IMG/VR virus record: IMGVR_UViG_3300035183_001077
Strand: one strand, 5' to 3'
DNA: 20,000 nucleotides
DNA from: an uncultured virus (IMG/VR IMGVR_UViG_3300035183_001077)
Lineage: Duplodnaviria; Heunggongvirae; Uroviricota; Caudoviricetes
Shown: positions 1,417-20,000 of the stretch, in pieces
How the letters are laid out: the number at the start of each line of letters is the position of its first letter
How positions within the stretch are numbered: position 1 is the stretch's first letter
The notes under the pieces: generated by a model
What the model saw: the letters and a program-made list of their open reading frames with translations, nothing else
The model's database searches: none
What the model was told of the DNA's origin: nothing
Program-made: the position numbers and the translations under genes

Positions 1417-2382
1417 CTACTGGTTGGTTTTTCGTCTTCTAAGCAGCAAAATCAATCCAGCCAGTATCGACTGCCCTACAGTGTTTCCAACTATCACGTA
1501 ATTTTCCCAATCAACTCCTGGCGATGGAGGTTTGGGCTGTGGTTCCGGCGCAGGTTTGGGTTCAGGTTTAGGTTCAGGTTTGCGTAAATCCGGTACTTCT
1601 TTTTGCAACTTATCCGCTAAAGCCGGATCTACTTTTCTCAGAGCTTCAAAAAGACCAGCAGACACATCATTCGGATCCGGTTGATGGTGTACCAAAACAG
1701 CTTTGCCATTCGTATCCCTAGGCCCAAAAACTGTCATACCGTCAGGTAAAGATACTTGTCTGTTATCAGCGGTAGTATATTTTATTTGCCAATCATCAGG
1801 CTTGAAATATTGAAACTTGAAATAATTATTAAAAGCTGGATGCAGCTTGGAAATTTCATTTTTGAATTGCAAGGATAAGTTTTCTGATCCAACAACTACA
1901 GCAGTCAGTTTAGCATTTTCTGATCTCCAGTCCAGTTCTCCAAACCTAGAAAGATCGTATTTTATACCTTTTTGTCTATCCATATTCCATCTGATTATAT
2001 CTATACCATAATTCGGAATACGATTAGGTGTCATCATATCAGTCGATTTCTCTGGTTTGGCCGCCTCAAGTAATAATCCTGACAAGTCAATCTTATTTTC
2101 TTCGCCACCAACTATGCAAACCCACACATGCCTGTGCTTAGTACCAATGCCAATCCAGTAAGTCTGTCCTTTCTTCAAATCGTATAATTCAAATTCTCTC
2201 CTGGTACCCAATGTTTTCGATTGATATTCCTGATCATTGTCTAACAAAAATAGTAAAGGCACATTCTGCAATACTTCAGGAACAGTTATTACCAATCTAG
2301 TAGTATCATTATTGCTTTGTCCATTTAATGAATTTATAAAAATCAATAGGGTAGCCACATAAATCAGACTGGTTTTTTTCAT
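1417..2382 (-). CDS. Exported protein with signal peptide, Pro-rich stalk and C-terminal membrane anchor (321 aa)
   Basis: AGGAG SD; MKK plus hydrophobic N-terminus; KPEPKPEPKPAPEPQPKPPSP linker; ends in ILAGLILLL-RRRKTNQ. Confidence 0.8.
   Translation of the reverse strand: MKKTSLIYVATLLIFINSLNGQSNNDTTRLVITVPEVLQNVPLLFLLDNDQEYQSKTLGTRREFELYDLKKGQTYWIGIGTKHRHVWVCIVGGEENKIDLSGLLLEAAKPEKSTDMMTPNRIPNYGIDIIRWNMDRQKGIKYDLSRFGELDWRSENAKLTAVVVGSENLSLQFKNEISKLHPAFNNYFKFQYFKPDDWQIKYTTADNRQVSLPDGMTVFGPRDTNGKAVLVHHQPDPNDVSAGLFEALRKVDPALADKLQKEVPDLRKPEPKPEPKPAPEPQPKPPSPGVDWENYVIVGNTVGQSILAGLILLLRRRKTNQ
1525..1581 (-). repeat. Short coding tandem repeat (AAACCTGAACCY unit) encoding a Lys-Pro-Glu-Pro linker
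   Basis: Minus strand reads AAACCTGAACCT AAACCTGAACCC AAACCTGCGCCG GAACCACAGCCC AAACCTCCA. Confidence 0.8.
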
Positions 2383-2385
2383 AAT

Positions 2386-3045
2386 TTATCTCCTCAAAAT
2401 ATCTACCGGCACTGGTGGAGGCGGGTCATCAAGTAAAACAACTACCCATGAACTGTCTCCACCGAGATGACTGCTTTTTAATCTTTTGAAAAATTCATCT
2501 TTGCTCATCCACTCCCATGTATTAGGATAATTGTTGTCTAAACAACATACAAGATTATCTCCAAAAAATACACAATTTACCATGTGTGCTATTCTGGCGC
2601 CAGTCCTATCAGATCCATATGTAACACAAGCCATACGATTGGTTTTAGCAGCATATTCTAATAATTTAATACAATTATCCATGCCTTCTACCTGAATATA
2701 ATTTTCATAATTAAATTTTCCCTTGAGATATTTGTCAACTTTTGCCGGATAACCACCGCCAGGTTGAGAGCGCATATAATTAAACAAGTCTTTAAGTTTC
2801 TCTACATTCTGCCATCTCGCCGCATGAGTTATTGAAGCCCAAACACATAATCCAGCACCGTCAATACCTCCTTTATTCCTAATATGAAATTGGTTTGGCA
2901 GAGGACACTGTACTTCGGTACCCTGATATACTGGTTCATCAGTTACAGTGCTGTTTTTACCGAAATCGGTTTGTGTAAAACAAACGTAAGTAGGCACTAA
3001 AATATTTAATATTAATAATGCAAGAAGCAAAACTTGCCTCATCAT
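2386..3045 (-). CDS. Secreted papain-like / C39-like cysteine peptidase (219 aa)
   Basis: N-terminal signal-like segment MMRQVLLLALLILNILV. Candidate Cys-His-Asp triad in papain-clan order: GAGLCVWASI, IAHMVNCV, CLDNNYP, followed by WMSKDEFFKR as in C39-like domains. Confidence 0.65.
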   Translation of the reverse strand: MMRQVLLLALLILNILVPTYVCFTQTDFGKNSTVTDEPVYQGTEVQCPLPNQFHIRNKGGIDGAGLCVWASITHAARWQNVEKLKDLFNYMRSQPGGGYPAKVDKYLKGKFNYENYIQVEGMDNCIKLLEYAAKTNRMACVTYGSDRTGARIAHMVNCVFFGDNLVCCLDNNYPNTWEWMSKDEFFKRLKSSHLGGDSSWVVVLLDDPPPPVPVDILRR

Positions 3046-6306: not shown

Positions 6307-7122
6307 TTATACTACACCAAATGCAGTTTCGCCGAATTCTTTTATTTTATGATCAATATTACCTTTAATTTGCGAAATTCTTGCCGGAGTTAATTTATAT
6401 TTCTTAGCAATATCTGCAAGCTGTTTTGGTTTTTTACCATACATTCCGTATATTTCTTCCATAATAGCCTGATGTAACGGGTCTAAAGATAAATATACAG
6501 ATTCTAAAAGTAATTTAAATTTTTGTTCTTTGACGCCTGGCCGTTCTACAATAACTGTACCTGTACCTACACCCCTTACTGACTCGCCCTCTTCTCCACG
6601 TTCTTCCACACCTTCACCAATGATATTTAGTGATTTTCCCAAAACCTTCTCAATTTTTTTCAAAGAAATACCAGTATAATCAGCAATTTGGGCAGCAGAA
6701 GGCTCGTGCCCAAGTTTGTTTGCTAATTCTTTAATTGCCGCGTTTATTTTATTTCGCAACAAAGCTTCTTTAGATGAAATATACGTAGGATAAATTTCAT
6801 AGCGAGTATCTTCCATTAGGCGTTTTAACCGCGTATACAAATGCGTAGTCATGCTGGATTTGGTTGGATCATAATCTTTAATTGCTTTTAGAGCATAATA
6901 TTTGGCTCGCCCACGTAATAAATCGCTGTCAAACGTTCCGCCGTATACATTTAATGTTTTAGTAAGCACAGGATTTATCAAATTTATAAATTCAGACAAT
7001 TTTTTTGGAGAAAAGTTAGACTTTACAAGGTTATAAAATGGTACCCGTAATTCTTTCTCAAGCTTTAATTTCTTATCCTCAGCAAAAGATTCTGGCGTTG
7101 GATAATCTCTGATTATATTCAT
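6307..7122 (-). CDS. Phage RNA polymerase sigma factor, sigma-70 family (FliA/WhiG/SigB-like group 3 layout)
   Basis: Region 2 AIKDYDPTKSSMTTHLY, region 3 ELANKLGHEPSAAQIADYTGIS, region 4 HTH LADIAKKYKLTPARISQI. Confidence 0.88.
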   Translation of the reverse strand: MNIIRDYPTPESFAEDKKLKLEKELRVPFYNLVKSNFSPKKLSEFINLINPVLTKTLNVYGGTFDSDLLRGRAKYYALKAIKDYDPTKSSMTTHLYTRLKRLMEDTRYEIYPTYISSKEALLRNKINAAIKELANKLGHEPSAAQIADYTGISLKKIEKVLGKSLNIIGEGVEERGEEGESVRGVGTGTVIVERPGVKEQKFKLLLESVYLSLDPLHQAIMEEIYGMYGKKPKQLADIAKKYKLTPARISQIKGNIDHKIKEFGETAFGVV

Positions 7123-7131
7123 GATAATTCC

Positions 7132-8841
7132 TCATGGTATTGTGTTAATATAGGAAGGATCTACCCATAGCGGATGGAAACCATAATAAGGAAATGATGA
7201 AACGATCCAGTCTTTCACTTCTTCATATCCTCGTACATGAGACAATGAAAAAGTTACTCCGGCCTTCTTTTCATTAATATCATACTCCAGCTCTACGGCA
7301 GTAATTTGTCCAATCATAGCCAGTTTATCTTGGTAATCATCTTTACGAAGAAAATTATATCCAAGTACTTTGGCTATTGTACCAGGACCTGGCATCATAC
7401 CATAATATTTAATTGCATTAATAATTGGCATTACCACAATCATACGCCGTGTCTCATAAGCTAATTTGTGAAATGTCGATCCAGCAATCAACGTACCAAG
7501 TTTTGTCATATTCATATAGTAGAGAGTTGTCCAATATTGCATAAGAACATTTGTCCATGCAGTCATCCAGTTCTGGACATAATTCAATTGAAACGTATTT
7601 AACCATTGCTGTACATTCTGTACATATAAATCAGTCAGAGAAGACCCTTTCATCCACGCTGGAGCTGGAATAACCAGCAACGAACCTGACATAAAGTTAT
7701 TAAAATAATTAGGAAAATTAAACCATGCAACATCATAATAACCAGCAATTGCTGTTTCCTTAGCTAATAACATTCCTGTATGTGGTAATTGACTTTCAGC
7801 AACAAGCACTACTCCACGCACATCCTGACGCACTTCGCCAGAAACTTTCATATAAATATAATCCCGCGGACTGAAAGTAAATTGATAATACGGACTTATT
7901 GGATTGTTTGGTATAATGTAAGCATCAGCACTATAACTTGGAGCAATTAAAAAGTCCCAGGTAGCACCAAGATCAAGCAATCTGGCAAACAGTGTAGCGT
8001 TAGTCCACGAAGTAACGTCTGTTCCAACAAGAGATTGAGCTAGAACTTCAGCATAGCCATACCCATATGTCCACATAAATCGTTTAGCATCATTATTCAT
8101 CTGTAAAATGAATATCATTCTGCCAAGAGAACTAGCTGCTCGTCCTTGACCAATAAACGGCAGTACTGGTTTCCCAGTATATTGAGTCAACTTTAACGCA
8201 GCATAATTAGTCAATAGACTCGAACCAAGAAGTACAAAAAGATAAGATTGAACTACCCCACCAAAATTAAAAAGCGAAAAATAAGTTCCAGGCAACATCT
8301 TTCGCAGTAAATCATATGATGTAACAGGAAGCTGCATAGTTAAAATTTGTTGAAATGTCGGTACACCCAGAAATAAATTAGCATTAGAAAAATCAGCAGG
8401 ACTTGAAGGATGAATCATACCTGTAGTAACACTGCCAAATCCAGCCTCAATTAACCTGCCTACTACATGAAATTCAACAAGAACTTCTTCATGAGTGAAC
8501 GAAGCATTAGCCGAATAAACATACCCTTGAAAAACTGGAATAGAACCAGCACCTCCACCCATCAAAGCTACTTGTAAGGTAATAGCGCATGGATTTAATT
8601 TTAATAAATGCTTCCAGGCTAATGGCCAATTTGGTGATACGGCGAAATCATCAATAATTGAAGGAATGCTTCTGGTAGCATGACATAAAATGGCTAATGG
8701 AGTAGAAAAAGTAGCTTTAGGAACATCATTTAATTTATATTCTATTTTACAATTACGTATTGGCAAATTTAATACTAAATTAGCCGGTGGGATAGTAATA
8801 GTTGCTGTCATCTGATATTTAACGACTACAGTTGTAGGCAT
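7132..8841 (-). CDS. Putative baseplate hub protein (T4 gp27 / P2 gpD / Mu gp44-like)
   Basis: N-terminal beta-strand pattern (CKIEYKLNDVPKATF...VFQGYV), C-terminal PGPGTIAKV...GQITAVELEY...TFSLSHVR pattern typical of hub proteins, and position after tail genes. Inferred, not database-confirmed. Confidence 0.5.
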   Translation of the reverse strand: MPTTVVVKYQMTATITIPPANLVLNLPIRNCKIEYKLNDVPKATFSTPLAILCHATRSIPSIIDDFAVSPNWPLAWKHLLKLNPCAITLQVALMGGGAGSIPVFQGYVYSANASFTHEEVLVEFHVVGRLIEAGFGSVTTGMIHPSSPADFSNANLFLGVPTFQQILTMQLPVTSYDLLRKMLPGTYFSLFNFGGVVQSYLFVLLGSSLLTNYAALKLTQYTGKPVLPFIGQGRAASSLGRMIFILQMNNDAKRFMWTYGYGYAEVLAQSLVGTDVTSWTNATLFARLLDLGATWDFLIAPSYSADAYIIPNNPISPYYQFTFSPRDYIYMKVSGEVRQDVRGVVLVAESQLPHTGMLLAKETAIAGYYDVAWFNFPNYFNNFMSGSLLVIPAPAWMKGSSLTDLYVQNVQQWLNTFQLNYVQNWMTAWTNVLMQYWTTLYYMNMTKLGTLIAGSTFHKLAYETRRMIVVMPIINAIKYYGMMPGPGTIAKVLGYNFLRKDDYQDKLAMIGQITAVELEYDINEKKAGVTFSLSHVRGYEEVKDWIVSSFPYYGFHPLWVDPSYINTIP

Positions 8842-8848
8842 GTTTTTA

Positions 8849-9400
8849 TTACCACGCTTGCCCTACATATGCTGGTAAAATAATGCCACAGGAAAAATTA
8901 ACATAAGGAATGTTATCTATTGCATTAGAAGACATTTTAAATTCAACCATCATTCCAAGCAAATTAACTATTTCAAACGTACATCCACTAGAATCACATC
9001 TTGCCAGACCAAACTTTAAATTCAAAAAATTATTGCTAGAAAATGCATTTCTAGATTGAACGTAATCTTTTAATAATGATATGAAATGCGAACCGCCTGT
9101 ACCACCAACTACGCCTGGGGCGAAGGATATTCCGCTCAAACTGCATTGGTGCGGCGCCAGTGTATTCATCATAAACTGGCTTGTCAAGAAAGGATAATTA
9201 TAAATTTTTACATTTGTATTGATTTGCAGCGATGCATTAAGAATTACTGTATAAAGATTATTTGCAAATAACCCGTCAACGTCCGCAATGATATAAAATC
9301 GTGTTTCATAAACAGTTTCATTAGTTGTTCCTGGAACCTGCCTTTTATAAGGTATACCAACTACTATAGCACGATAATCATATTTGATTATTTGCGACAT
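8849..9400 (-). CDS. Putative tail-tube-fold baseplate / tube-initiator protein (183 aa)
   Basis: Beta-rich, low-charge, virion-like composition; ..CSLSGISF..LLGMMVEFKM..FSCGIIL pattern; TAATG overlap with the upstream gene. Confidence 0.4.
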   Translation of the reverse strand: MSQIIKYDYRAIVVGIPYKRQVPGTTNETVYETRFYIIADVDGLFANNLYTVILNASLQINTNVKIYNYPFLTSQFMMNTLAPHQCSLSGISFAPGVVGGTGGSHFISLLKDYVQSRNAFSSNNFLNLKFGLARCDSSGCTFEIVNLLGMMVEFKMSSNAIDNIPYVNFSCGIILPAYVGQAW

Positions 9401-9939
9401 TATTTTTGCACTTTTCCAGGTAATGCTATACTAATTGTAGATAAAAGTATAGGTAAATTCCTTGATGAGGCATAAGTTAAATTCCATGATTGAATTAATC
9501 CGACAAAATCAGGTGGTGAAGTTGGCTCAGCCTGAGGAGCAAGATCTCTAACGTATACTTCTGCCAAGTACTCAATTTTTCCTTGTGTCGGATCCATTGA
9601 GCTTCTTAAAGTACTATTCAGCCACGATAACGTGCTAATTCTACCAATGGAAATACCTGTCATACCTAAAGATATTGGGTCTAGCATTCCTTGAGCAAAT
9701 AGCAGCCCAGTTATTCCAAGAATGGCCGGCCCAGGTTCAAAAATAGAAATATAAGAATCTCCCCAGACACTCATGGCAAGAGCATAATTAGTTTGATTGT
9801 GAAAATTCAAACCGGCTCCGAAAAGGAAAATTTCGTTTTTGCTGAGTGTAGAATCTTTGATAGTTAACCATACTTTCACATTTCTGGCTCTAAAAGTATG
9901 AACAGTGTAAATTTTATTGTGATACGTCAGCACCTGCAT
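9400..9939 (-). CDS. Putative tail-tube-fold baseplate / tube-initiator protein (179 aa)
   Basis: Same size and pattern as its neighbour (..LGITGLLF..FVGLIQSWNL..STISIAL); lies between the chaperone genes and the hub. Confidence 0.4.
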   Translation of the reverse strand: MQVLTYHNKIYTVHTFRARNVKVWLTIKDSTLSKNEIFLFGAGLNFHNQTNYALAMSVWGDSYISIFEPGPAILGITGLLFAQGMLDPISLGMTGISIGRISTLSWLNSTLRSSMDPTQGKIEYLAEVYVRDLAPQAEPTSPPDFVGLIQSWNLTYASSRNLPILLSTISIALPGKVQK

Positions 9940-9941
9940 AA

Positions 9942-10250
9942 TTATCCAAAACTAAAGTTAGTAATACCAGGTATTTTCAGGCTTGAAGGCGCACTTATAC
10001 CAGTGCCACTGTTTCCAAAACCGGTACCGCCTAAATTGATATTTCCAACATTAATTGGTGGCAGGTTTATGGTTGGAGAACCACCTGAATTGAAGGAATT
10101 ACCAAATGTAGAAGAAACGTTCACTGGTGGTGGAGACAGACTAGCAGAATCAAAAATAGGTCTCAAACCATTGTTATGGTTAAAAGCGTTCGCTGATATA
10201 GCTTCCTCATTACCAGCAACACCTTTAATAAAGTCATTTATTTCCAGCAT
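9942..10250 (-). CDS. Gly/Ser/Pro/Asn-rich low-complexity protein (102 aa) in the tape-measure position
   Basis: AAAGGAG SD 6 nt before the ATG; tightly packed between its neighbours. Confidence 0.7.
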   Translation of the reverse strand: MLEINDFIKGVAGNEEAISANAFNHNNGLRPIFDSASLSPPPVNVSSTFGNSFNSGGSPTINLPPINVGNINLGGTGFGNSGTGISAPSSLKIPGITNFSFG

Positions 10251-10587
10251 GTGTTGCTCCTTTTAATAATGAATTATAAATTTTGATCATCTCCTGCATT
10301 CTATCATATGACGATGTAAATAGTTTTCGGTTAAGCATGAATAATGAAACATAATTCAAATTATTACATATTTGGTCAATAATATTAGAAACTCTAGATG
10401 TATCCATAGCATGAGAAGCCAAAGCATCTCCCATAGTCTTAATTGCAACGAGTCTAAGTTCAATCAAATACTTTGTTTTCAGGTATCTCTTAATAAATAT
10501 AAACTTTTTGTCTTTACTGCTTAATAACTCTAACTGTGTGGACCTCAAAAAACAATTAATCAACTCATGGCAGATTGGTGTGAAATA
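10234..10587 (-). CDS. -1 frame extension (lambda gpT-like moiety) of the tail assembly chaperone
   Basis: The listed 109-aa ORF has only a TTG start with no convincing SD. Its frame is open upstream exactly to the slippery run at 10596-10587, where a TGA closes it. Confidence 0.7.
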   Translation of the reverse strand, partial: YFTPICHELINCFLRSTQLELLSSKDKKFIFIKRYLKTKYLIELRLVAIKTMGDALASHAMDTSRVSNIIDQICNNLNYVSLFMLNRKLFTSSYDRMQEMIKIYNSLLKGATHAGNK

Positions 10588-11138
10588 AAAAAATTTTCAG
10601 ATGTTATCTCCTTCCTTAATTTTTCCTCTAAAGTAACAAACGATTCATACAAATGACATATAATACGCCACGCATTCTCTGATTTTATTATTGATTTCTT
10701 CAACCATACAGGATTTATCAGACCAGCCTCTTCTGCTTCCTTTGTCAAAAGAAGCTTATCGTATTTAACAAAATCGCCATTTTTAATTAATATTAACGAC
10801 TGGGCAGCTCTCCATGTCAAAATTTCATTTTTGACAATTATTTCAGGCATATTTTTACAATTTTCGGCAACATATTTATAAATAGCATCAGCTGTTTCCG
10901 CAGGAATAGAACGAAAACGTACTTCAATTGTGCCCTTATTTATAAAATAGCTCTTTTCAAATGGAGTGTCATATAATATATTTTTTACCATTGTTTCAAT
11001 ATCTTCATCAGAAAATTCAGATTCTTTAATTACTTCGGGAATATTTGGCGGTGAAGTAGAGCTTAATTTCTGCAATTCAGAAAGTGTATCTGTGTTATCT
11101 GACACGTCATTAGTGTTCAAATTAGACAGCACGGGCAT
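10560..11138 (-). CDS. Putative tail assembly chaperone (lambda gpG-like role), 192 aa
   Basis: Strong GGAGGTG SD; acidic N-terminus, IEVRFRSI strand then helical region; ends with ENFF on a slippery sequence, as expected for G/GT-type chaperones. Confidence 0.65.
   Translation of the reverse strand: MPVLSNLNTNDVSDNTDTLSELQKLSSTSPPNIPEVIKESEFSDEDIETMVKNILYDTPFEKSYFINKGTIEVRFRSIPAETADAIYKYVAENCKNMPEIIVKNEILTWRAAQSLILIKNGDFVKYDKLLLTKEAEEAGLINPVWLKKSIIKSENAWRIICHLYESFVTLEEKLRKEITSENFFISHQSAMS
10587..10613 (-). promoter_or_regulatory. Programmed -1 ribosomal frameshift signal
   Basis: Minus strand AAGGAG-ATAACATCTGA-A AAT TTT TTT: two overlapping X-XXY-YYZ heptamers (A-AAT-TTT, T-TTT-TTT) in the correct phase, with an internal SD-like AAGGAG 11 nt upstream. 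Confidence 0.75.
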
Positions 11139-11158
11139 AATTCACCTCCAAATTAATT

Positions 11159-12937
11159 TTACACACACGGCTCCTGACTACCAATAGATTTTTGTTTAAA
11201 GTTATGCTGTACCTGTTGACAATTATTACTAACGCTGGAAATATAAGTTCCATAACTAGGAATATTTTCCGGATAAATTAAAATATCGTTTTTAGATTCT
11301 CCAGTAGGAATACAGTGGTTAGGGGCCTCTACTCCAGCTGGCATAATACCCACACTTCTTTCTACAATAATAACTGGAAAGCCGTATGGACAGCTGCACC
11401 CAGGAGGAGTAACCTGATCTGATTGCACTTCTACGTCAGCCTCATCAGCAAAAGTATCAGCAACAATCAGGTCTGCCACAATATTTTCGGCGAGAATACC
11501 TTTTATTTCAGCAAATTCTGCTTGTAAAGGTAACGAAGCAATAACCTTATCTCCCATAACAGTAATTCCTGGTAAACCATCTATTAATAATCTTATTTGC
11601 GATCCGGAACATAAATCCATCGTATATTGTGAATAAACTTGCAGATTCGGCGCTGCCCTGATACCAACACCTTTTGTAGAGCTACTTATTGCAACACCAT
11701 TTCCACGCAAAATAATATCATCGCTTATACCAACTATATTGGTTGGAGCGAACATTTTGATACTGGAAGTTAATGAATTTAATACTATTCCACCAGTATT
11801 GTCAATCGCAATATAGCTTCCATTCGAGCTGACCAGTGCTATACTTCCATCATCGGCAATATAAAAATAACTTCCCATAATATTTCCACTAGTGGCAACC
11901 GCGAATTCCCCGGAGTGGGCTATAAATCGTTCAAAAGCCAGGGCCTGGGCTCTTCCAATAAAAAATTCTGGGTAGAGTGCTTTAGAATACTGTACAGAAT
12001 AGGACATGAAATTGGAAGCACATACACCTTTATTACAGGCGTTATACCTATATCCAGTAAGATGGCTGACTGCTCCAACCTGATAAGGCATTCCAGTTCT
12101 AACAACAGAATTCAGCGATGATGTTACTCCCAGCAATATACCACGAGTAGTTAACAGGTGATATGTGCCCGGTAATCCAATATTTTCAAATACGGCTGCA
12201 CCACCACCTATTACAAGCATTCTCGTATGACCTTCATTAGCCAATGATCCTTTAAATTCAACAAAACCGGAGCAATTACCACTCAAGTCGCCTTTAGATA
12301 CTTCTACATGGTAATTTTCCTGCTGATGAGCATAACAGGCAAAATGGTAAAACGGTGTAGTAAAATCCAACCTAGAACCAGCTAATTTTAAAGTTTGATC
12401 AAAAAATGAATATGACAAATGGGTAGAGGCATCACCAAGATGAGAATAAAATGGACTGAACAAAAACCTATTCCCAGTAAAAGACGCAAGAGCATAATCT
12501 CCTGGCATTAAACCTGTTAACTGACTGGCAAATCCGGTCTTCTGAAAGTACCTGTAACCGTCAATAGCTGCTTGATCAGAAGCCAACGGAAATTCTCTAT
12601 CGGTTGAAATATCAACAGGGTAAGTGAACGCCGTAGAAGGCCATCTTTCAGTTGGTAACGTTCCTATAATATAAGCATCATTCTTTTTTACAGCTACAAT
12701 AACCCTAGTTCCAGGAACAAGAGGTTCATACACATCTACCCCGAACATGCCAACATTAGCACAAGCCGAACCTCGACAATCTATTGCAAGCCTTACCGGC
12801 CCAGCGCCCGATACTCTGGCTACGCGTGTTGGTACATTGTAATCAATAACAATACCTACACACAATACAGCATCCTGTACCAAACGCGGTACCTGTTGCT
12901 GTCTTTCATGAAAGTCGTGGTTAGCAAGCTGAGGCAT
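11159..12937 (-). CDS. Putative baseplate central spike (gp5/gpV/VgrG-like), 592 aa
   Basis: N-terminal OB-fold-type motif PGTRVIVAVKKNDAYIIGTLP. Later short beta-strand repeats (YFYIADDGSIALVSSNGSYIAIDNTGGIVLNS...) typical of triple beta-helix spikes. Confidence 0.6.
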   Translation of the reverse strand: MPQLANHDFHERQQQVPRLVQDAVLCVGIVIDYNVPTRVARVSGAGPVRLAIDCRGSACANVGMFGVDVYEPLVPGTRVIVAVKKNDAYIIGTLPTERWPSTAFTYPVDISTDREFPLASDQAAIDGYRYFQKTGFASQLTGLMPGDYALASFTGNRFLFSPFYSHLGDASTHLSYSFFDQTLKLAGSRLDFTTPFYHFACYAHQQENYHVEVSKGDLSGNCSGFVEFKGSLANEGHTRMLVIGGGAAVFENIGLPGTYHLLTTRGILLGVTSSLNSVVRTGMPYQVGAVSHLTGYRYNACNKGVCASNFMSYSVQYSKALYPEFFIGRAQALAFERFIAHSGEFAVATSGNIMGSYFYIADDGSIALVSSNGSYIAIDNTGGIVLNSLTSSIKMFAPTNIVGISDDIILRGNGVAISSSTKGVGIRAAPNLQVYSQYTMDLCSGSQIRLLIDGLPGITVMGDKVIASLPLQAEFAEIKGILAENIVADLIVADTFADEADVEVQSDQVTPPGCSCPYGFPVIIVERSVGIMPAGVEAPNHCIPTGESKNDILIYPENIPSYGTYISSVSNNCQQVQHNFKQKSIGSQEPCV

Positions 12938-12943
12938 AGGATC

Positions 12944-13393
12944 TTAGGTCTCAGAGAAGTTCAATCTGAAAAATAAAAATATCAAAGTTCTTAAAAATAC
13001 GAAATTCCCAGAATCAAATTTTAATTGGGCTTCTATTGGATAAACATCCATTAAAGTTATTCCAGAAGACTTTTGAATGCCGCTACCTCCATCAGAACAA
13101 TTATAAACTTCTAAAGTCATATTTGTTCCGTTTACAGTAGGGTTTAATAAATTTTGAAACGCTGATTTTTCAACCATAGCCTCCACAAAACTAGCTTTGC
13201 CAACAGGTTCTTTAAAAATAAACATTGGATTAGTCGTATTTGCCGGAACAATTACTTCGGGTTGAATACCATAAGCTACTTCACAATAATGGAAGAAAAA
13301 TTCACTGCTATCAACGCCACCTCCTTGGAAATGAACGTAGGTAACTCCTGGACCGACTATTATTGTTTTAGTGGTATCAATTATATTTGGCAT
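12944..13393 (-). CDS. Putative tail-tube-like protein, paralogue 3 (149 aa)
   Basis: Tube-like size and beta-rich composition; C-terminal ITLMDVYP...FDSGNFVF motif shared with the two upstream genes. Confidence 0.5.
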   Translation of the reverse strand: MPNIIDTTKTIIVGPGVTYVHFQGGGVDSSEFFFHYCEVAYGIQPEVIVPANTTNPMFIFKEPVGKASFVEAMVEKSAFQNLLNPTVNGTNMTLEVYNCSDGGSGIQKSSGITLMDVYPIEAQLKFDSGNFVFLRTLIFLFFRLNFSET

Positions 13394-13421
13394 ACATTAT
13401 TATATATGTTAATCAACAACA

Positions 13422-14003
13422 TCAATTATTAGTAATATCAGTAATATCAATTTTAAGAAAAGCATATGTGGCATGATTTACAAAGATAAAGTTATCAGCA
13501 GAAATTTGCCCACCAGCACCAATGGGTGTGCAATGAATCAATTTAATAAGTTTTTTATTAAAAGCTCCGGCTGAGTTAGACAAAGGGAAAGATATTTTCA
13601 AAGTTGGAGAAGCGCTTTCAGTAACAGTATTCGGAGCCTGTAATTGCAACGATGATTTTTTACATAACGTCTGAGTACCAATATTAGTACCCACAGAACT
13701 ATATGGTACAGCCAACCATGCAATTCTGGCAATACCAACGTTGGGCAGGGAAATAATAACTTGATTTTTCTTATTTGGAATAGTATTAGCACTGCTGTTA
13801 ATATCGGACAATGTTAGAGCGGTAAGAAAATTCATAAGTTGTGCTTGTGTTTGCCATATTAGTTCTACTCTGGCTATAAGTTGAGATCCTGGAAATAGAT
13901 AGTTGGCAGCAGCTGGACCCTGGTTAGCATTAACAAATTCAACATAAACTCCTTGCAATTCAACACCAGTAGTTCCTTTTAGTGTTAATAGCTCAGTAGG
14001 CAT
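13422..14003 (-). CDS. Putative tail-tube-like protein, paralogue 2 (193 aa)
   Basis: C-terminal IKLIHCTP...ISADNFIF motif matches both neighbours. Confidence 0.45.
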   Translation of the reverse strand: MPTELLTLKGTTGVELQGVYVEFVNANQGPAAANYLFPGSQLIARVELIWQTQAQLMNFLTALTLSDINSSANTIPNKKNQVIISLPNVGIARIAWLAVPYSSVGTNIGTQTLCKKSSLQLQAPNTVTESASPTLKISFPLSNSAGAFNKKLIKLIHCTPIGAGGQISADNFIFVNHATYAFLKIDITDITNN

Positions 14004-14006
14004 TTT

Positions 14007-14456
14007 CTATGCTCCGTAATTGGCAAAAGCAAACTTCATTTCCTGAATAAAAACAAAATTGGAGCTATCAATATAACCTGACGATTGTACAATAAAAGCG
14101 TTTTCAAAATTTATTGTTACTGATGATCCATTGCAGGAAAAAGAAACACTGACTGCTCCACCACCACCACACGGGTTTCCTCTTCGGAAACCTGCTTCTA
14201 TTGCATTAATAGCTGAAACATATTCGTTATTATCACTAGTAGGTAACAGAATTTGCATAAACTGACCTTGCCCAAGAGCTGGTAACGATAACAAAACTGC
14301 ACGTCTATCAAGACCAAAAATCGGTTGCGTTTGTCTTGTCAAATCAAAAGATACAGCCCGAACAATACCAGAAACACCCACACCAGCAATATTAAACGTT
14401 GCTGTAATCGTATCAGGATTAGCCGAGCCGATAGAATTAGGTTCTATAATTGGCAT
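14007..14456 (-). CDS. Putative tail-tube-like protein, paralogue 1 (149 aa)
   Basis: VRAVSFDLTRQTQPIFGLD (beta-hairpin loop typical of tube proteins) and C-terminal INFENAFI...IDSSNFVF. Confidence 0.55.
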   Translation of the reverse strand: MPIIEPNSIGSANPDTITATFNIAGVGVSGIVRAVSFDLTRQTQPIFGLDRRAVLLSLPALGQGQFMQILLPTSDNNEYVSAINAIEAGFRRGNPCGGGGAVSVSFSCNGSSVTINFENAFIVQSSGYIDSSNFVFIQEMKFAFANYGA

Positions 14457-14459
14457 AAG

Positions 14460-15314
14460 TTAATATATGTTGTAAACTTTGATAGATTTTCCCTGATCCG
14501 TAAGTTCTATGACCCCACAACCACACGAAGCCGTTTCAATCCCTTTAGCAACTACATAATTAGGATAGTAACCTTCTCTCACTCCTGACGACCTAATAGG
14601 CGCTAATTTATTATAATATCCAGATGTTCTAATTAAGTATACATCTTTATATTTTATGCCATCAGATTCAAATTTAATTTTGGAAGTTTTTGTTACCAGA
14701 GGTTCATGCAAATGCCCCAACCACATCACATCAACGTTTTCTAAATACATTAATAAATCAGCAAAATTTCCTATTCCCTTCGTTTTTCTCGAACCAGTAC
14801 CCCAACCATGATGGTAAAAAATATTTAAATTTCTCCTGCTTTTACCTTCTACAGAGTATTTGATAAAACCACAATAACCGCCATAACATATCTGGCTGCC
14901 AGTTTGATTATTTAATCTAAAAATTAAAGTATTCAAAATATCCAAACTTGCTCTTTTACTAAAACTTGTTTCATGGTTGCCAGTACCTATCATATCTATA
15001 TTTACAGCAAAATCTCTCAAAATATTTTCAGCCAGACGTAATTGAGCACCAACAAAATCTGAACTTTTCAGCAACCTTTTGTCCATACTTTCGATACTGA
15101 ATCTCGGATCAGTCAGCGGAACTACATCAAACAAATCACCATTTATAAGTATCCTGGCTTGCTCTTTTTTAGCCTGCTTCAGATGTGATACAAGCAGTTT
15201 CTCATTAAAGTGGGCTGAGCCGATATGTATATCACTGAAAAGATATATTTTACCGTTCGGCGGTATTGTCCTGGACTTACAGATGACTATGTTATCTGCT
15301 ATAGATTTGGGCAT
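14460..15314 (-). CDS. Calcineurin-like metallophosphoesterase
   Basis: All five motifs present: SDIHIG, NGDLFD, GNHE, HHG, GHLH. Confidence 0.92.
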   Translation of the reverse strand: MPKSIADNIVICKSRTIPPNGKIYLFSDIHIGSAHFNEKLLVSHLKQAKKEQARILINGDLFDVVPLTDPRFSIESMDKRLLKSSDFVGAQLRLAENILRDFAVNIDMIGTGNHETSFSKRASLDILNTLIFRLNNQTGSQICYGGYCGFIKYSVEGKSRRNLNIFYHHGWGTGSRKTKGIGNFADLLMYLENVDVMWLGHLHEPLVTKTSKIKFESDGIKYKDVYLIRTSGYYNKLAPIRSSGVREGYYPNYVVAKGIETASCGCGVIELTDQGKSIKVYNIY

Positions 15315-15332
15315 ATCGCGGCTAATTAATGG

Positions 15333-18284
15333 TTAGCCGCATCCAGAAGTTTCACCGCATCGTGAACATACAAAACAAGTACCTGCGGCGAGCATTTGAG
15401 CTCCACAAGATTCACAAATTCTTCCACTTAAGGCCATATCTTCCTTCTTTTCTTCTGTATTATACTTTTCATCACCAAGAAAATCTTTTGCCAGCCTTCT
15501 GGCAATGTAATCTATAATTGAAAATGCCTGAGGAATGTCCTTATCTCCTGTAAATCCATGCGGTTCAAACCGCATATATGACAGTTTCCTGCACAAAACC
15601 TCAAGAGGAACACCATACTGCAGGGCAATAGAAAAAGTAATCCCAAACGCAGCCAGCAAACCTGCCAGAGTGCTTCCTTCTTTTGAAATATTAATAAATA
15701 TTTCTCCAGGCATTCCATCTTCGGGATTTATACCAACAATTAAATATCCCGATGTCCTATTAACTTTGAATTTTCTTACAATTGCATTCCTGACCTGAGG
15801 CAATTTTCTACGTTTAATAATATATTTATCTTCCCCAGAATAGTCTGGATCGCTATTGTCAACATTGTTCATTTTGTTTTCGTCCTCTTTATCAGTTTTT
15901 ACTTTTTGCAACGGCTGATACGCTTTTGAGTTGTCTCTGTAAATAGCAACGCATTTAACTCCTTTAGTATAGCTTAGTTCTATGGCTTTTTTAATATCTT
16001 CTACACTGGCATGTTCTGGTAAATTAATAGTCTTGGAAATACCCATGTTAATAAATTCCTGAGCGGCAGATAAAACATTGATATGGTCTTCATATGTTAA
16101 TGCATGTTTACATATACCATTAGGCCATGCTGTAGCAAAAATAAGCTTATGTTCATCATTAACGAGATTACCAACATCTTCGCCGTCAAGTAATTTATCT
16201 TTAATTTTATCAACATGAGAGGGGCTGTAAAGTTCATTCAAAACTGTCAGAACAGAATTAGCAACGATACGCATTTTACCACCGCCAACAAGGTATTTAT
16301 CGTAGACAATAGACAATATTGGTTCTACTCCAGTTGTTTCGCAGCCCATAAACAATCCAATAGTACCTGTAGGAGCAATGCATGTAAGCTGGGCATTTCG
16401 TAATGTCAGGCTTTTATCCTTAGCCATTGTCATCAAATTATTAAATTTCTTCCCGGCTTCTATAAGATATTCAGTCATAAAATTGTTTTCTTCATCAGTT
16501 AAACCATTATCAGTTCTAAAATCAAGCCATTTCTTTACCCGTGAACTGTAAATATTTAATAAATCTTCACACGACGAATAATCCTGACAATGAAACTTAC
16601 CAAAACATTTACCCAGTAAATTAGACATAGTCATAGCTTCAGCAGTAAGATAACTGCAATAAGCCGCTGTCATAAACAAAGACTTGGGACTACCGTATTT
16701 ACAACAACTTTCCAAAATTACTTTTCCTAAATTACAAATCCCTAAGCCCAACGTTCGGTATAACAAAGTTTTATAACAAATATCATCTGACGGAAAGCCT
16801 CCCATATCAAGCAAACAATCCATACTGATAATGGCAGTGTCTATTACAGTCTTATAGTCAACAATATTTTCAATATGTTCCAGGTTTATAGAGGCTAGGT
16901 TACAACTTGTGTTATCAAACCAAAGATATTCTGAGCAGGGATTACTTGAATTTATAGTTTCTACCTTTGTTGTTCGATATTTATTAATCATATCAGAAAA
17001 CTGAATACCCGGATCTCCACAACGCCATATACCTTCAGCAATAAGATTAATTAACTTAGCTTCCCTTTCTTTGCCAGCAAGATAGTTTCCCATGAAAGCA
17101 TCAGAAATACGGACAGAAACATTAGCGTTCTGGAGCCATACTGAAGTAGCGTCATAACCGGCATTGGCAAGTGTATGAGCTTTATCTTCTTCATGTTTTT
17201 TCATTGTTATAAATTCTTCAATATCAGGATGATCTGCCGATAAAGTAAACATGATTGCCGATCTTCTTGTCCTTCCTCCTGATTTCATTACTCCACCAGT
17301 AGCATCAACAACTTTCATAAATGAAACAGGACCACTAGCCGTACCGCCATTAGATAACTTTGCTCCTGCATGACGCAACTTAGACCAATCCATACCAGCT
17401 CCTGAACCAAACCTGAATATCTTTGCAGAAGTAGTAACTGCATTGAAAATCGCTTCAATTGTATCTTCAATACCAATGATGTAGCACGCACTTATCTGAG
17501 GATAATGGAGAGGATCCTGCAAGGAAACCCTATCCAATTCCATGTATTCAGGTGCGATAGATCCACCCTCATAACCAAAAACCTTTTTTTCTCCTGAAGA
17601 GATAATTCGTTCTATATCCCAATCGAAAGTACTTACAAGCGTTTCAACTGACTTGTTTGACCAAATTATTATTTTATTTAATAGATATCCATCCCCGGAG
17701 GTAACAGTTTTGAAATCCAGCTTGTCCTGATCAGAGCGAAACAACATTTCTTTGACATAATAAAAACCATGCCCGACGTTAAACCATACTGGACTGTTAA
17801 AGGCAAAATAACGTTGTATAAGCAACAAAAATAGCTGTTTGAAAAACTTTGCAACTGTATTCTTTAATTTTTTCACACCTTCTTTATCATCAACGAAATC
17901 GTCCCTCATACGCAAATACAACATACGACTAACATGCCATGCTACGCAAGAAATCAAATCATAGACGCTATTTTCATCAAAAGTAAACTTTCTTTCTTCA
18001 AAATTCCACAAGTGCCTGGCAAAAGTGGTTTCAGTTATGTTTATTTTTTTAAAATACTTATCCCCTGCTATATAGCATGCTCTATCATCCCAAAACTGCG
18101 GAGCTATGACAATTTTTTCGCCTTTATTAGGAATATTTATAGATAAAACTTTATGATCATAAATTAGCTTCTCAGGATACTTATATAATAACGGTTGATC
18201 GAGAATGTAGTCCATCAGTGAATGCAGTAATGCTTTTCCACTTTCCAAAACCTTTTCGTTCTTTTTTTCGAGTACTGCTGACAT
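15333..18284 (-). CDS. nrdJ: Class II (adenosylcobalamin-dependent) ribonucleotide reductase with TSCPD domain and C-terminal zinc ribbon
   Basis: NSPVWFNVG, PQISAC, GSGAG, SGPVSFM, KSGGRTRR, NPCSEY, CNLASINL, IAPTGTIG, ISKTIN, AIYRDNSK. C-terminal GEIFINISKEGST...ALQYGVPL...FEP (TSCPD) and CESC...CSRC. Start moved from the GTG at 18344 to the ATG at 18284, which has an AAAGGAG SD. Confidence 0.96.
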   Translation of the reverse strand: MSAVLEKKNEKVLESGKALLHSLMDYILDQPLLYKYPEKLIYDHKVLSINIPNKGEKIVIAPQFWDDRACYIAGDKYFKKINITETTFARHLWNFEERKFTFDENSVYDLISCVAWHVSRMLYLRMRDDFVDDKEGVKKLKNTVAKFFKQLFLLLIQRYFAFNSPVWFNVGHGFYYVKEMLFRSDQDKLDFKTVTSGDGYLLNKIIIWSNKSVETLVSTFDWDIERIISSGEKKVFGYEGGSIAPEYMELDRVSLQDPLHYPQISACYIIGIEDTIEAIFNAVTTSAKIFRFGSGAGMDWSKLRHAGAKLSNGGTASGPVSFMKVVDATGGVMKSGGRTRRSAIMFTLSADHPDIEEFITMKKHEEDKAHTLANAGYDATSVWLQNANVSVRISDAFMGNYLAGKEREAKLINLIAEGIWRCGDPGIQFSDMINKYRTTKVETINSSNPCSEYLWFDNTSCNLASINLEHIENIVDYKTVIDTAIISMDCLLDMGGFPSDDICYKTLLYRTLGLGICNLGKVILESCCKYGSPKSLFMTAAYCSYLTAEAMTMSNLLGKCFGKFHCQDYSSCEDLLNIYSSRVKKWLDFRTDNGLTDEENNFMTEYLIEAGKKFNNLMTMAKDKSLTLRNAQLTCIAPTGTIGLFMGCETTGVEPILSIVYDKYLVGGGKMRIVANSVLTVLNELYSPSHVDKIKDKLLDGEDVGNLVNDEHKLIFATAWPNGICKHALTYEDHINVLSAAQEFINMGISKTINLPEHASVEDIKKAIELSYTKGVKCVAIYRDNSKAYQPLQKVKTDKEDENKMNNVDNSDPDYSGEDKYIIKRRKLPQVRNAIVRKFKVNRTSGYLIVGINPEDGMPGEIFINISKEGSTLAGLLAAFGITFSIALQYGVPLEVLCRKLSYMRFEPHGFTGDKDIPQAFSIIDYIARRLAKDFLGDEKYNTEEKKEDMALSGRICESCGAQMLAAGTCFVCSRCGETSGCG

Positions 18285-18335
18285 AATTGCTCCTTTATCC
18301 GACAGGTTTGCCAAATAGGGTAGGCTGGTAAAACC

Positions 18336-18363
18336 ATTATACACTAGCGGCGCTGATTTTCAT
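18336..18363 (-). promoter_or_regulatory. Possible sigma-70-type promoter upstream of nrdJ
   Basis: Consensus TATAAT at 18341-18336; ATGAAA (4/6 match to TTGACA) with a 16-nt spacer; about 50 nt before the SD-supported nrdJ start. Confidence 0.4.
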
Positions 18364-20000
18364 CCTGATAAGACGAAGAGTTGAAAAACTTAACAGCAAA
18401 ATCAGGCCATGCCGTTAACTCCCATAATGCCACTACGGCAAAATTAACAGCATGAACAAAATCATCAGATAGTGCTGGGTTTCTCTGAATTAAGTACTGG
18501 TCTTCACCCATTGGGTGTTCAACTTTTTCTTCAAAAATAGATAGAAAGTGAAGTAATAGATTATTTCCTTCGGGATTATCATCAGTGTATTCAAAGAACT
18601 TTATCAATCCTAATTTGATAGCGGCACATAAAATCTGAATACTTCTTGATTTATGCAAGCGGCATACCTGCCGCATTGTCGTAGCCAGACTCTGTTTATT
18701 GCTGGCTTTGATTAATAATTTTCCACCAACAGAACCATAATATTGTACCGGTAAAATATTAACATTCCCGTGTTGCATTAATAATATTTCTCTCAAACTA
18801 CCAGACGGATTAGCATCATGGGCAAGAATATTTATTCTGCACTTATTAAAGTAATACAAAATGGACTTTACCTCTTCGAGAGGGTCGTTCTGCCCAAATC
18901 TGATACCACGTAGAATATGGCATTGACCATACTTGTAGGCAGCTATAGCCAAAGTAGTCCTTGACAAACCACTTTCACCGCCACCACCCCAATCTATACC
19001 CATTGTAATTACAGAGTAATCTTTAATTTTTCCAAACAAATTTTCATCTGTATTTGGGCCGAGCGTTGCATTTCTAACTAAATCTTCTCTAGAAACCAGC
19101 TTCACACCTTCATCTTCAGATTCTCCTAAAATTTCATTTTTAAAAGATGCAAACCCGCCAACAAGGTTTTCTTGTTTATGTAATAACTCTGCCCAGGCTC
19201 TGGGGCTGGAATAGTGAACTGGTATCAATGGTTGGGGGATATGGTATCCAACGAAATCAAATCTTTTTTGTGGGTTGCCATGAACCCAGAATCCTTTTCT
19301 TGGACTTATTGGTACGCCACACTTCGCACAAATAAGACCTGGCCTTTCTTCAGAAATATCTGGTCGGACTGGGCCGAGCATTTTTAATAAATCGCATTTT
19401 GATGAAGCTATGTTTTCATATTTGCAATTATCGCAGGGAATGCACCACTCGGCTTTACTCGACCGTTGCCATAGCCATTCGATAGGGTTATCAAGAGTTT
19501 TCGCTGTGCCTGTGTATATTCTTAGACGCCAGAAAGAATGGGAAAGGCATTCATTCACCACATCAGTAAACTGTAAATCAATATCCTGAACTTCATCGTA
19601 ATTAATAGCATCCGCCGGCGCACCACGTATTCTCGTGGGATCTGTATGCATTGAGCACAATCTTATATTTGAGTTATTAGTAAAACTCTTTTCCATTATG
19701 GTTCTACGGCAATCGTTATTAATAAATTCATTTTTGAATGGACTGGAATCTATCAAAGGTCTGATATAATCAACACTCATACGCTCTACATGGACATGTA
19801 ATGGAGCGACAACAAGCCGTCTAAAACCTGGTATTAGCCAACACAATAATACTTGATGAGCAGAAATAGACAACGTTTTTCCAACCTGACGACCACACAT
19901 AAATAACATTTGCGACGGGACTTCCATTTTGAACAGTGGTTCAAACAGGAAATGATCAATCAGAGTAAACGGTTTACCATTCCACCTAAAAAAATAAGGT
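18344..20000 (-). CDS. terL: Terminase large subunit (gpA-like with zinc-binding insert), 5'-partial
   Basis: Walker A GRQVGKT, Walker B INYDEVQD, coupling motif TGT, CDNC...CAKC, nuclease MGIDWG and DDFVHA. The frame stays open past 19927 to the window edge (PYFFRWNGKPFTLIDHFLFEPLFK-M). Confidence 0.92.
   Translation of the reverse strand, partial: PYFFRWNGKPFTLIDHFLFEPLFKMEVPSQMLFMCGRQVGKTLSISAHQVLLCWLIPGFRRLVVAPLHVHVERMSVDYIRPLIDSSPFKNEFINNDCRRTIMEKSFTNNSNIRLCSMHTDPTRIRGAPADAINYDEVQDIDLQFTDVVNECLSHSFWRLRIYTGTAKTLDNPIEWLWQRSSKAEWCIPCDNCKYENIASSKCDLLKMLGPVRPDISEERPGLICAKCGVPISPRKGFWVHGNPQKRFDFVGYHIPQPLIPVHYSSPRAWAELLHKQENLVGGFASFKNEILGESEDEGVKLVSREDLVRNATLGPNTDENLFGKIKDYSVITMGIDWGGGGESGLSRTTLAIAAYKYGQCHILRGIRFGQNDPLEEVKSILYYFNKCRINILAHDANPSGSLREILLMQHGNVNILPVQYYGSVGGKLLIKASNKQSLATTMRQVCRLHKSRSIQILCAAIKLGLIKFFEYTDDNPEGNNLLLHFLSIFEEKVEHPMGEDQYLIQRNPALSDDFVHAVNFAVVALWELTAWPDFAVKFFNSSSYQDENQRR

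What the first reader, a model, noticed from the sequence alone, without database searches (positions are those of the whole stretch)
7132..14456. Tail module with up to five tube-fold genes and only a 102-aa ORF in the tape-measure slot: possible short tail of stacked, distinct rings
Seen: the order is tube-like x3, spike, chaperone G/GT, 102-aa ORF, tube-like x2, hub. There is no long helical tape-measure gene and no sheath gene in the window. Established: in long-tailed phages the G/GT chaperone is normally followed directly by a tape measure of hundreds to thousands of residues, which sets length at about 0.15 nm per residue; tube rings rise about 4 nm. Inference: a 102-aa ruler would specify about 15 nm, only a few rings, close to the number of distinct tube-like genes here. 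The virion may have a short tail made of one ring per paralogue on a myovirus-type hub and spike. The simpler alternative is that the tape measure and sheath lie elsewhere in a shuffled genome.
Basis: partly seen in the sequence, partly recalled or inferred. Interest (0 to 1): 0.72.

Follow-up and report, generated by a model that had tools for sequence, protein, structure and literature searches.

The report
Phage tape measure split in two
In this uncultured phage only a 102-residue stub sits where the tail's ruler gene belongs; related phages with such a stub carry the ruler's large helical part far away, mostly beside genes of a kind thought to be packed into the head, which points to a very short and probably sheath-less tail.

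Summary
The gene order is real and I found no sign of misassembly. The module belongs to a clade of ~135-235 kb uncultured phages whose usual order is sheath, tube, spike, G/GT, slot protein, initiator, F6, hub, sigma. Of 37 tail regions read, 31 have a 705-1730-aa slot protein, 2 have 500-611 aa and 4 have 110-212 aa. In all 4 short-slot relatives the large helical domain of the long slot protein is a separate gene ~50 kb away, in or beside ligase/2H/pyrophosphatase (polyvalent-type) genes. Trees make this a repeated, derived move. A sheath is missing genome-wide in 2 of the 4 and present in 2. So the tape measure is probably split, not absent. The window's own genome is not held, so its sheath and relocated domain could not be checked. 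One tube fold is shown, four are weakly supported. 'One ring per paralogue' lacks support: both sheath-less short-slot relatives have one tube gene. A short tail remains likely but is inferred. The scan had not noted this on other DNA.

The parts
14007..14456 (-). Tail tube protein T1 (149 aa), orthologue of the clade's tube family F11
   Evidence: hhalign probability 51%, E 1.5e-4; 0 of 300 shuffles reach its score; model pLDDT 74 built with the family alignment matches Hcp/tube chains, best Z 11.2, rmsd 3.8, 111 aligned
13422..14003 (-). T2 (193 aa), probable divergent tube paralogue; not a sheath remnant
   Evidence: 1 of 300 shuffles reach its tube-profile score, no score against the sheath profile; low-confidence Atlas model (pLDDT 0.35) has tube/Hcp neighbours at TM 0.34-0.44 by query; lead only
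12944..13393 (-). T3 (149 aa), probable tube paralogue
   Evidence: 0 of 300 shuffles reach its tube-profile score (4.7 bits); hhalign probability 7%; weak
11159..12937 (-). Central spike (gp5/VgrG-like), 592 aa; relatives 860-1064 aa
   Evidence: family F1 profile E 2.5e-14; one F1 member has a sub-threshold DUF2345 hit; position
10560..11138 (-). Tail assembly chaperone G (192 aa)
   Evidence: family F7 profile E 6e-11; hhalign probability 96%
10587..10593 (-). T7 slippery run for the -1 frameshift that makes GT
   Evidence: in-frame T run in 21 of 21 G genes examined; open -1 frame
10234..10563 (-). T part of GT (about 301 aa as a fusion)
   Evidence: position and frame; no significant match to the relatives' T profile
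9942..10250 (-). 102-aa Pro/Gly/Ser/Asn-rich ORF in the tape-measure slot; probable residual ruler or plug
   Evidence: synteny; RBS and codon use; composition; no significant match to either end of the long slot proteins
9400..9939 (-). T4 (179 aa), probable tube-initiator paralogue (family F8)
   Evidence: 7 of 300 shuffles reach its score; model pLDDT 44 and fold search inconclusive
8849..9400 (-). T5 (183 aa), probable second F8 paralogue; not the F6 gene that relatives have here
   Evidence: 2 of 300 shuffles reach its F8 score; F8 and F11 profiles are related (probability 65%, E 6e-5); no F6 match
7132..8841 (-). Baseplate hub (gp27/gp44-like), 569 aa
   Evidence: Atlas feature neighbours include Gp44-like/GpP clusters at 0.96; family profile E 1.8e-22
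6307..7122 (-). Sigma factor; follows the hub as in most relatives
   Evidence: phrog_351 E 2.7e-12; synteny

Best explanation
The slot gene of this clade normally encodes a long protein: a conserved ~600-700-aa helical domain (F9N), a variable stretch and a short beta-rich end. In several lineages F9N has moved to a gene ~50 kb away, in or beside polyvalent-type genes, and a 100-210-aa low-complexity stub stays between G/GT and the tube initiator. The window's 102-aa ORF is most likely such a stub (shown: position, expression signals, the pattern in relatives; inferred: that its own genome holds a relocated F9N). Mechanism (inferred): F9N is the ejected, cell-entry part of the tape measure; once it rides in the head, the stub alone is chaperoned by G/GT, anchors in the hub and sets a short tube, about 13-15 nm if compact and at most about 30-35 nm if extended (roughly 3-9 rings). 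The tail is probably non-contractile but keeps a myovirus-type hub and spike.
For: Short slot goes with relocated F9N in 4 of 4 relatives: G074 E 7.7e-12, G017 1e-10, G019 1.9e-9 among 6199 ORFs with a profile that did not contain them, G061 5.3e-33. Of 38 records searched, 29 have F9N at one place only, next to the spike or in the slot, 4 only away from it, 1 (G060) at both, 4 none; G067 also shows a second copy, 1 of 5 more records. Relocated copies are fused to or flank 2H-SAK, InPase, SET, LigD_N/ligase domains; InPase polyvalent proteins are predicted to be virion-packed and injected (PMC5512222, passages). In G061 F9N lies behind 2H and SET domains, in G060 before a ligase, and G060 keeps an intact slot copy, so a relocated copy need not be a ruler. 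The G061 copy is sister to the G014 slot copy, matching the tail-gene tree. The G061 stub keeps the family's C-terminal motif (0 of 200 shuffles). For no sheath: F6 stands before the hub at 250-333 aa in 30 of 32 profile rows and is 155 and 163 aa in sheath-less G060 and short-sheath G065; it is absent in G017, G019 and at this place in the window.
Against: The window's genome is not held, so neither relocated F9N nor sheath could be sought; the genes upstream of the tube (F13, F2) and the wedge genes are also outside the window, so the module was rearranged and a sheath may have moved with them. Two of four short-slot relatives keep a full sheath. G085 and G092 (500, 611 aa slots) show no F9N anywhere searched. 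The 102-aa ORF matches neither end of long slot proteins (162 and 22 of 200 shuffles score as high), nor do the G017, G019 and G074 stubs. F9N has no Pfam tape-measure hit; its role rests on position. In G017 and G019 the relocated gene is a stand-alone ORF beside a ligase, with no 2H or InPase seen. The window joins G017/G019 only weakly and on long branches (terminase 81; not in the hub tree). Trees 69, 119, 130 are quick searches without the mixture model.
Confidence: 0.5

Rival explanations
1. Ruler in trans: the relocated ~600-aa domain still fills the tube and sets a normal tail of about 75-90 nm, with or without a sheath; the stub is only the baseplate anchor, a genetic version of a cleaved tape measure.
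For: G061 and G074 keep a full 945-1037-aa sheath with 180-212-aa stubs, which is easier to picture on a longer tail; G017, G019 and G074 encode F9N as a stand-alone 582-610-aa ORF; G/GT is kept in all.
Against: F9N is embedded in enzyme polyproteins in G060 and G061; G060 and G067 carry a second copy beside an intact slot copy; four of five relocated copies lack matches to the middle of the profile and are on long branches.
Confidence: 0.25
2. One reading: no large tape-measure domain anywhere; the tail is a fixed stack of one ring per tube paralogue.
For: Three tube-like genes before the spike and two initiator-like genes were seen in no relative (at most two tube genes: G009, G012, G097); five rings of about 4 nm would fit a 102-aa ruler; stacks of distinct tube-fold proteins exist in the RcGTA tail (PMC7296036, passages).
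Against: G017 and G019 have a similar stub with one tube gene and one initiator; all four short-slot relatives keep F9N elsewhere; only T1 has a demonstrated tube fold; G/GT is kept. (A short tail that uses the paralogues as distinct rings is compatible with the best explanation; only the counting mechanism is rejected.)
Confidence: 0.12
3. The 102-aa ORF is a vestige or an unrelated small gene; tail length is set by another, unrecognised protein elsewhere.
For: No homology of the ORF to anything searched; low complexity; large unassigned ORFs exist in G017 and G019 (up to 997-1000 aa).
Against: Strong RBS, typical codon use, overlap with the T stop; similar stubs persist in four relatives; G017 and G019 stubs share an N-terminal SVVTGL motif.
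Confidence: 0.11
4. Misassembly or a recent deletion in a defective genome.
For: A 57-base stretch (9890-9946) is not bridged by a listed contig of the second run.
Against: No joints, even depth, identical sequence over 9947-12760 in a second study; intact reading frames on both sides; same architecture in relatives.
Confidence: 0.02

Closest known systems
Salmonella phage Arash (OQ632216.1; PMC10585845, passages): myovirus, contractile tail 140 nm, virion RNA polymerase
   Same: Best phage-collection match of the terminase (27.6%); its gp6, gp12, gp13 hit the clade's F8, F14, F4 profiles and gp2 weakly the G profile (E 0.01); sigma gene amid the tail genes; sheath present.
   Different: Its slot gene by position (gp4, my assignment) is 1097 aa, about 0.128 nm per residue; it gave no F9N match.
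Rhodobacter capsulatus gene transfer agent tail (PMC7296036, PMC8718954, passages)
   Same: Very short non-contractile tube (five rings of 38.3 A) with a short tape measure (113 + 83 + 20 residues); several tube-fold paralogues stacked.
   Different: Siphovirus-type tip; helical trimeric ruler about twice as long as this ORF; five rings from one gene; nothing about a relocated domain in the passages read.
Lambda-type G/GT chaperone followed by the tape measure (PMC3556154, passages)
   Same: Frameshifted chaperone pair directly upstream of the slot.
   Different: The slot protein is 102 aa, non-helical, against 1964 aa for a 295-nm tail in phiCbK.
Phage polyvalent proteins (PMC5512222, passages)
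   Same: 2H phosphoesterase and InPase domains beside or fused to the relocated F9N in G060, G061, G074.
   Different: The text has no occurrence of 'tape measure'; a tape-measure domain as cargo is my inference.
mReC phages with multi-subunit RNA polymerase (PMC7481178, passages)
   Same: G019 encodes RNA polymerase beta-type subunits, capsid, portal, terminase, wedge.
   Different: Membership was not tested by a tree; the paper's main text does not mention a sheath (0 occurrences).
Podovirus ejection proteins such as T7 gp14-16 (recalled, no call)
   Same: Works like the proposed model: entry proteins stored in the head, short external tail.
   Different: No homology shown; this phage keeps tube, hub, spike and G/GT genes.

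Membership tests
Canonical tape measure protein | Gene directly after the G/GT chaperone pair and before initiator and hub | tested here: met
Canonical tape measure protein | Long, mostly helical chain | tested here: not met
   102 aa, 52% P/G/S/N, 19% helix-favouring residues against 51-54% in the body of long slot proteins
Canonical tape measure protein | Homology to the slot proteins of relatives | tested here: inconclusive
   no match above shuffles to N- or C-terminal profiles; G061 and G085 slot ORFs do match the C-terminal one
Canonical tape measure protein | Length sets tail length | not testable with these tools
   no isolate
Contractile (myovirus-type) tail | Sheath gene | not testable with these tools
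   absent from the window; genome not held; absent in G017, G019, G060, present in 20 of 21 near-complete records
Contractile (myovirus-type) tail | Tube protein of Hcp/gp19 fold | tested here: met
   T1 model
Contractile (myovirus-type) tail | Hub and central spike | tested here: met
   (profile and feature evidence, no structure)
Contractile (myovirus-type) tail | Wedge (gp6/J-like) gene | not testable with these tools
   outside the window; kept in sheath-less G017, G019, G060
Five tube-fold paralogues | T2-T5 adopt the tube fold | tested here: inconclusive
   shuffle counts 1, 0, 7, 2 of 300; T4 model unusable; T2 Atlas lead
RcGTA-like short tail | Short helical trimeric tape measure | tested here: not met
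   composition is non-helical
Polyvalent proteins (for the relocated domain in relatives) | Fusion or neighbourhood with 2H, InPase and similar domains | tested here: met
   G060, G061, G074; in G017 and G019 only a LigD_N/ligase neighbour
Polyvalent proteins (for the relocated domain in relatives) | Packed in the head and injected | not testable with these tools
   predicted for the class in PMC5512222
mReC clade | Deep-branching RNA polymerase beta and beta-prime genes | not tested
   PHROG hits in G019 only; no tree; not in the window

The most novel reading that the evidence does not exclude
A myovirus lineage has become a short-tailed, sheath-less phage by moving the ejected domain of its tape measure into head-packed polyproteins, leaving a ~100-residue disordered ruler on a myovirus hub and spike, with the window's three tube and two initiator paralogues forming distinct rings; the clade preserves the steps (full sheath; shortened sheath in G065; no sheath in G060 with two copies; no sheath and stub in G017/G019).
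Probability: 0.3. Interest if true: 0.85.

Novelty: new variant of a known kind. Interest (0 to 1): 0.66.

Why it matters
Tape measures are thought both to set tail length and to help DNA entry, and the two roles are hard to separate. Here they appear to have been split into two genes at least three times in one clade, and the clade also shows graded sheath loss. If the stub alone sets length it would be about half the size of the RcGTA ruler, whose tail a review calls the shortest of those it compares (PMC8718954), and it would link long-tailed and podovirus-like entry strategies. It also warns that tail length predicted from the gene after G/GT, and morphotype predicted from baseplate genes, can both be wrong. 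I found no report of a split or relocated tape measure in four searches of the open library; subscription papers are largely not covered.

Tried and rejected
Own genome: not held. Close relatives with DNA context: none found in viral contigs, metagenome contigs (best 41% terminase identity) or GTDB contigs, although proteins 92-97% identical exist; so the 102-aa ORF could not be aligned with a close orthologue. Spike against annotated phages: no match. Terminase flanks do not reach the tail module in relatives. My first conclusion, that G017 and G019 have no tape-measure domain at all, was overturned by a wider profile. T2 as a sheath remnant: rejected. T5 as F6: rejected. Extra ORFs between sheath and tube in G085 as tube paralogues: rejected. 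T4 structure: pLDDT 44, best Z 3.7, inconclusive. PhageMin_Tail PF10145: 0 of 5 genomes. PDB sequence searches with tube and F6 profiles: nothing significant. Complex prediction of G (2 copies) with the 102-aa ORF: no verdict, score 0.02, not used. No RNA holder listed. The spike-only tree did not finish. A K-x-A motif that might mark head-protease sites occurs in 6 of 8 ORFs of the relocated clusters, without a background control; not used as evidence. No supplements were read; those of PMC7481178 and PMC10585845 could bear on clade membership and virion content.
Full report
Observation. The ORFs, order and coordinates are as described, all on the minus strand. Library scans name only the flanking genes: terminase, phosphoesterase, sigma factor, helicase. 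The 102-aa ORF starts inside the end of the T frame, has an AAAGGAG site and ordinary codon use. Contigs of two studies show no joint; one spans the whole module, the other spans 9947-12760 without a difference. X1 may be the source of the window, so only X2 is independent, and it does not visibly bridge 9890-9946.

Finding relatives. The window's genome is not held. Terminase homologues led to viral contigs, and a hub profile matched 23 of 31 records, 12 of 12 near-complete. I read 20 tail regions, later found more through the capsid protein and read 17 more (chosen to include the records with weak or no slot match, so short slots are enriched). The usual order is F13, F2, sheath (PHROG sheath hits), tube F11, spike F1, G, T, slot protein, F8, F6, hub, sigma, F5, F14, wedge. 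Profiles place the window's spike, G and hub in these families. The G/GT slippery run is in frame in 21 of 21 rows. So the 102-aa ORF does occupy the tape-measure slot.

Slot lengths. Of 37 regions (G010 and G027 are near-identical), 31 have 705-1730 aa (median 1231), G085 and G092 have 500 and 611 aa, and four have short low-complexity ORFs: G017 (110 aa from an internal ATG, 137 from a TTG), G019 (147), G074 (180), G061 (212). G019, G061 and G074 have terminal repeats.

Where the rest went. The first profile of long slot proteins found nothing in G017, G019 or G074 but found a copy in G061 about 52 kb from the tail. A profile of the first 750 residues from 31 sequences then found separate ORFs of 582-610 aa in G074, G017 and G019 (E 7.7e-12, 1e-10, 1.9e-9 among 6199 ORFs), with conserved motifs in register. 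Over 38 records, 29 have the domain at one place by the spike, four only away from it, G060 at both, and four (G085, G092, a fragment, Arash) none (that profile contains the three relocated copies, so one search is the independent test). G067 also has a second copy. The relocated copies lie in or beside ORFs with 2H-SAK, InPase, SET and LigD_N/ligase domains; such InPase proteins are predicted to be virion-packed and injected (PMC5512222, passages). A tree of spike, hub and sigma needs 3 changes for the short slot; in the domain tree the G061 copy is sister to the G014 slot copy and the G060 and G074 copies group with the G060 and G065 slot copies (six near-duplicate rows dropped). The move is therefore derived and repeated, probably by duplication and then loss from the slot. 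These are quick trees with long branches.

Sheath. It is found in 47 of 49 further records, 20 of 21 near-complete; the misses are G060 and a fragment. It is absent from G017 and G019 by three searches, yet both keep the wedge gene. G065, sister of G060, has a 666-aa sheath lacking about 240 profile positions. G061 and G074 have stub and full sheath, and G060 has no sheath but a 705-aa slot protein, so the two traits are not locked. For the window the evidence is indirect: no sheath directly before the tube, but F13 and F2 are missing there too; no F6 before the hub, where full-sheath relatives have it and sheath-poor ones have it shortened or lost. I put sheath loss at about 0.6.

Tube-like genes. 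T1 is a tube protein (the model leaned on the family alignment). T2 and T3 score weakly above shuffles against the tube profile, T4 and T5 against the initiator profile, itself related to the tube profile; the T4 model failed. Three plus two is more than any relative showed, which is a real peculiarity, but G017 and G019 manage a similar stub with one plus one, and two tube genes occur with very long slot proteins. Paralogue count does not explain the stub.

How it most likely works. Shown: position, G/GT, the split in four relatives, sheath loss in three. Inferred: the window's genome holds a relocated domain (about 0.75); that domain is head cargo rather than ruler, because it is fused to enzymes in two genomes and coexists with an intact slot copy in two; the stub then sets the length. 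At 0.15 nm per residue (PMC3556154, passages) or 0.128 (Arash, 140 nm over my positional assignment of gp4; PMC10585845, passages) it gives 13-15 nm; as an extended chain (0.31-0.35 nm per residue, general knowledge) up to about 35 nm. For scale, the RcGTA ruler of about 216 residues fills five tube rings and the distal ring (PMC7296036, passages). The main rival, a ruler acting in trans with a normal tail, stays open, and the full sheaths of G061 and G074 favour it somewhat.

Comparison with the known. It works like a short non-contractile tail with head-stored entry proteins; it is not shown to be a member of any podovirus or GTA family, and the stub fails the long-helix test for a canonical tape measure. 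Searches (listings and abstract starts only) gave no report of a split tape measure. I read passages, not whole texts, of PMC7481178, PMC8718954, PMC5512222, PMC7296036, PMC3556154, PMC7824862 and PMC10585845, and no supplements. Labels such as gp27-like, VgrG-like, initiator and T7 ejection proteins are partly recalled.

Verdict. Real feature; new variant of a known kind; interest 0.66. The comparative result (repeated split and relocation, graded sheath loss) is well supported in relatives; its application to this phage and the tail length are inferred.

Noticed in passing
L314 (G060), L320 (G065): Sister genomes with graded sheath loss: G065 has a 666-aa sheath missing about profile positions 149-389, G060 (226 kb) has none; both have a shortened F6 gene.
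   Followed up: partly
L357:5405-9457, L323:9387-12560, L341:8133-10967: Polyproteins joining the tape-measure domain, 2H phosphoesterase, SET, InPase and DNA ligase domains in different orders, with K-x-A motifs near some domain borders.
   Followed up: partly
L133:2574-6935, L134:1239-3089 (G019): RNA polymerase beta-type subunits, suggesting the clade is related to mReC phages.
   Followed up: no
window 11159-12937: The spike is 592 aa, about 270-470 aa shorter than in relatives; hub and spike sit on long branches in both the window and G017/G019.
   Followed up: no
window 1417-3045: Two secreted-looking ORFs: 219 aa with Cys and His motifs, and 321 aa with PEPK repeats and a C-terminal hydrophobic stretch plus basic tail; no library match. 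They remind me of Planctomycetota proteins (recalled, untested).
   Followed up: no
window 18344-20000: The terminase frame is open to the window's edge (551 aa; a 97% relative has 576 aa), so the true start lies outside the window.
   Followed up: partly
window 14460-18344: A phosphoesterase and a 1003-aa ORF that reads like a ribonucleotide reductase (recalled motif, not scanned) lie between terminase and tube genes, where relatives have F13, F2 and the sheath.
   Followed up: no
G003:C1:63075-63979: The major capsid protein match is split over two frames (frameshift, intron or sequence error).
   Followed up: no
L316:9299-10801, L317:10073-11908: G085 and G092 have 500- and 611-aa low-complexity slot proteins with a sheath and no detected F9N domain; unexplained by my model.
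   Followed up: partly
window 2011-2179, 11220-11423, 12761-12814, 14100-14520: Short variant contigs in both runs indicate co-occurring related strains.
   Followed up: no
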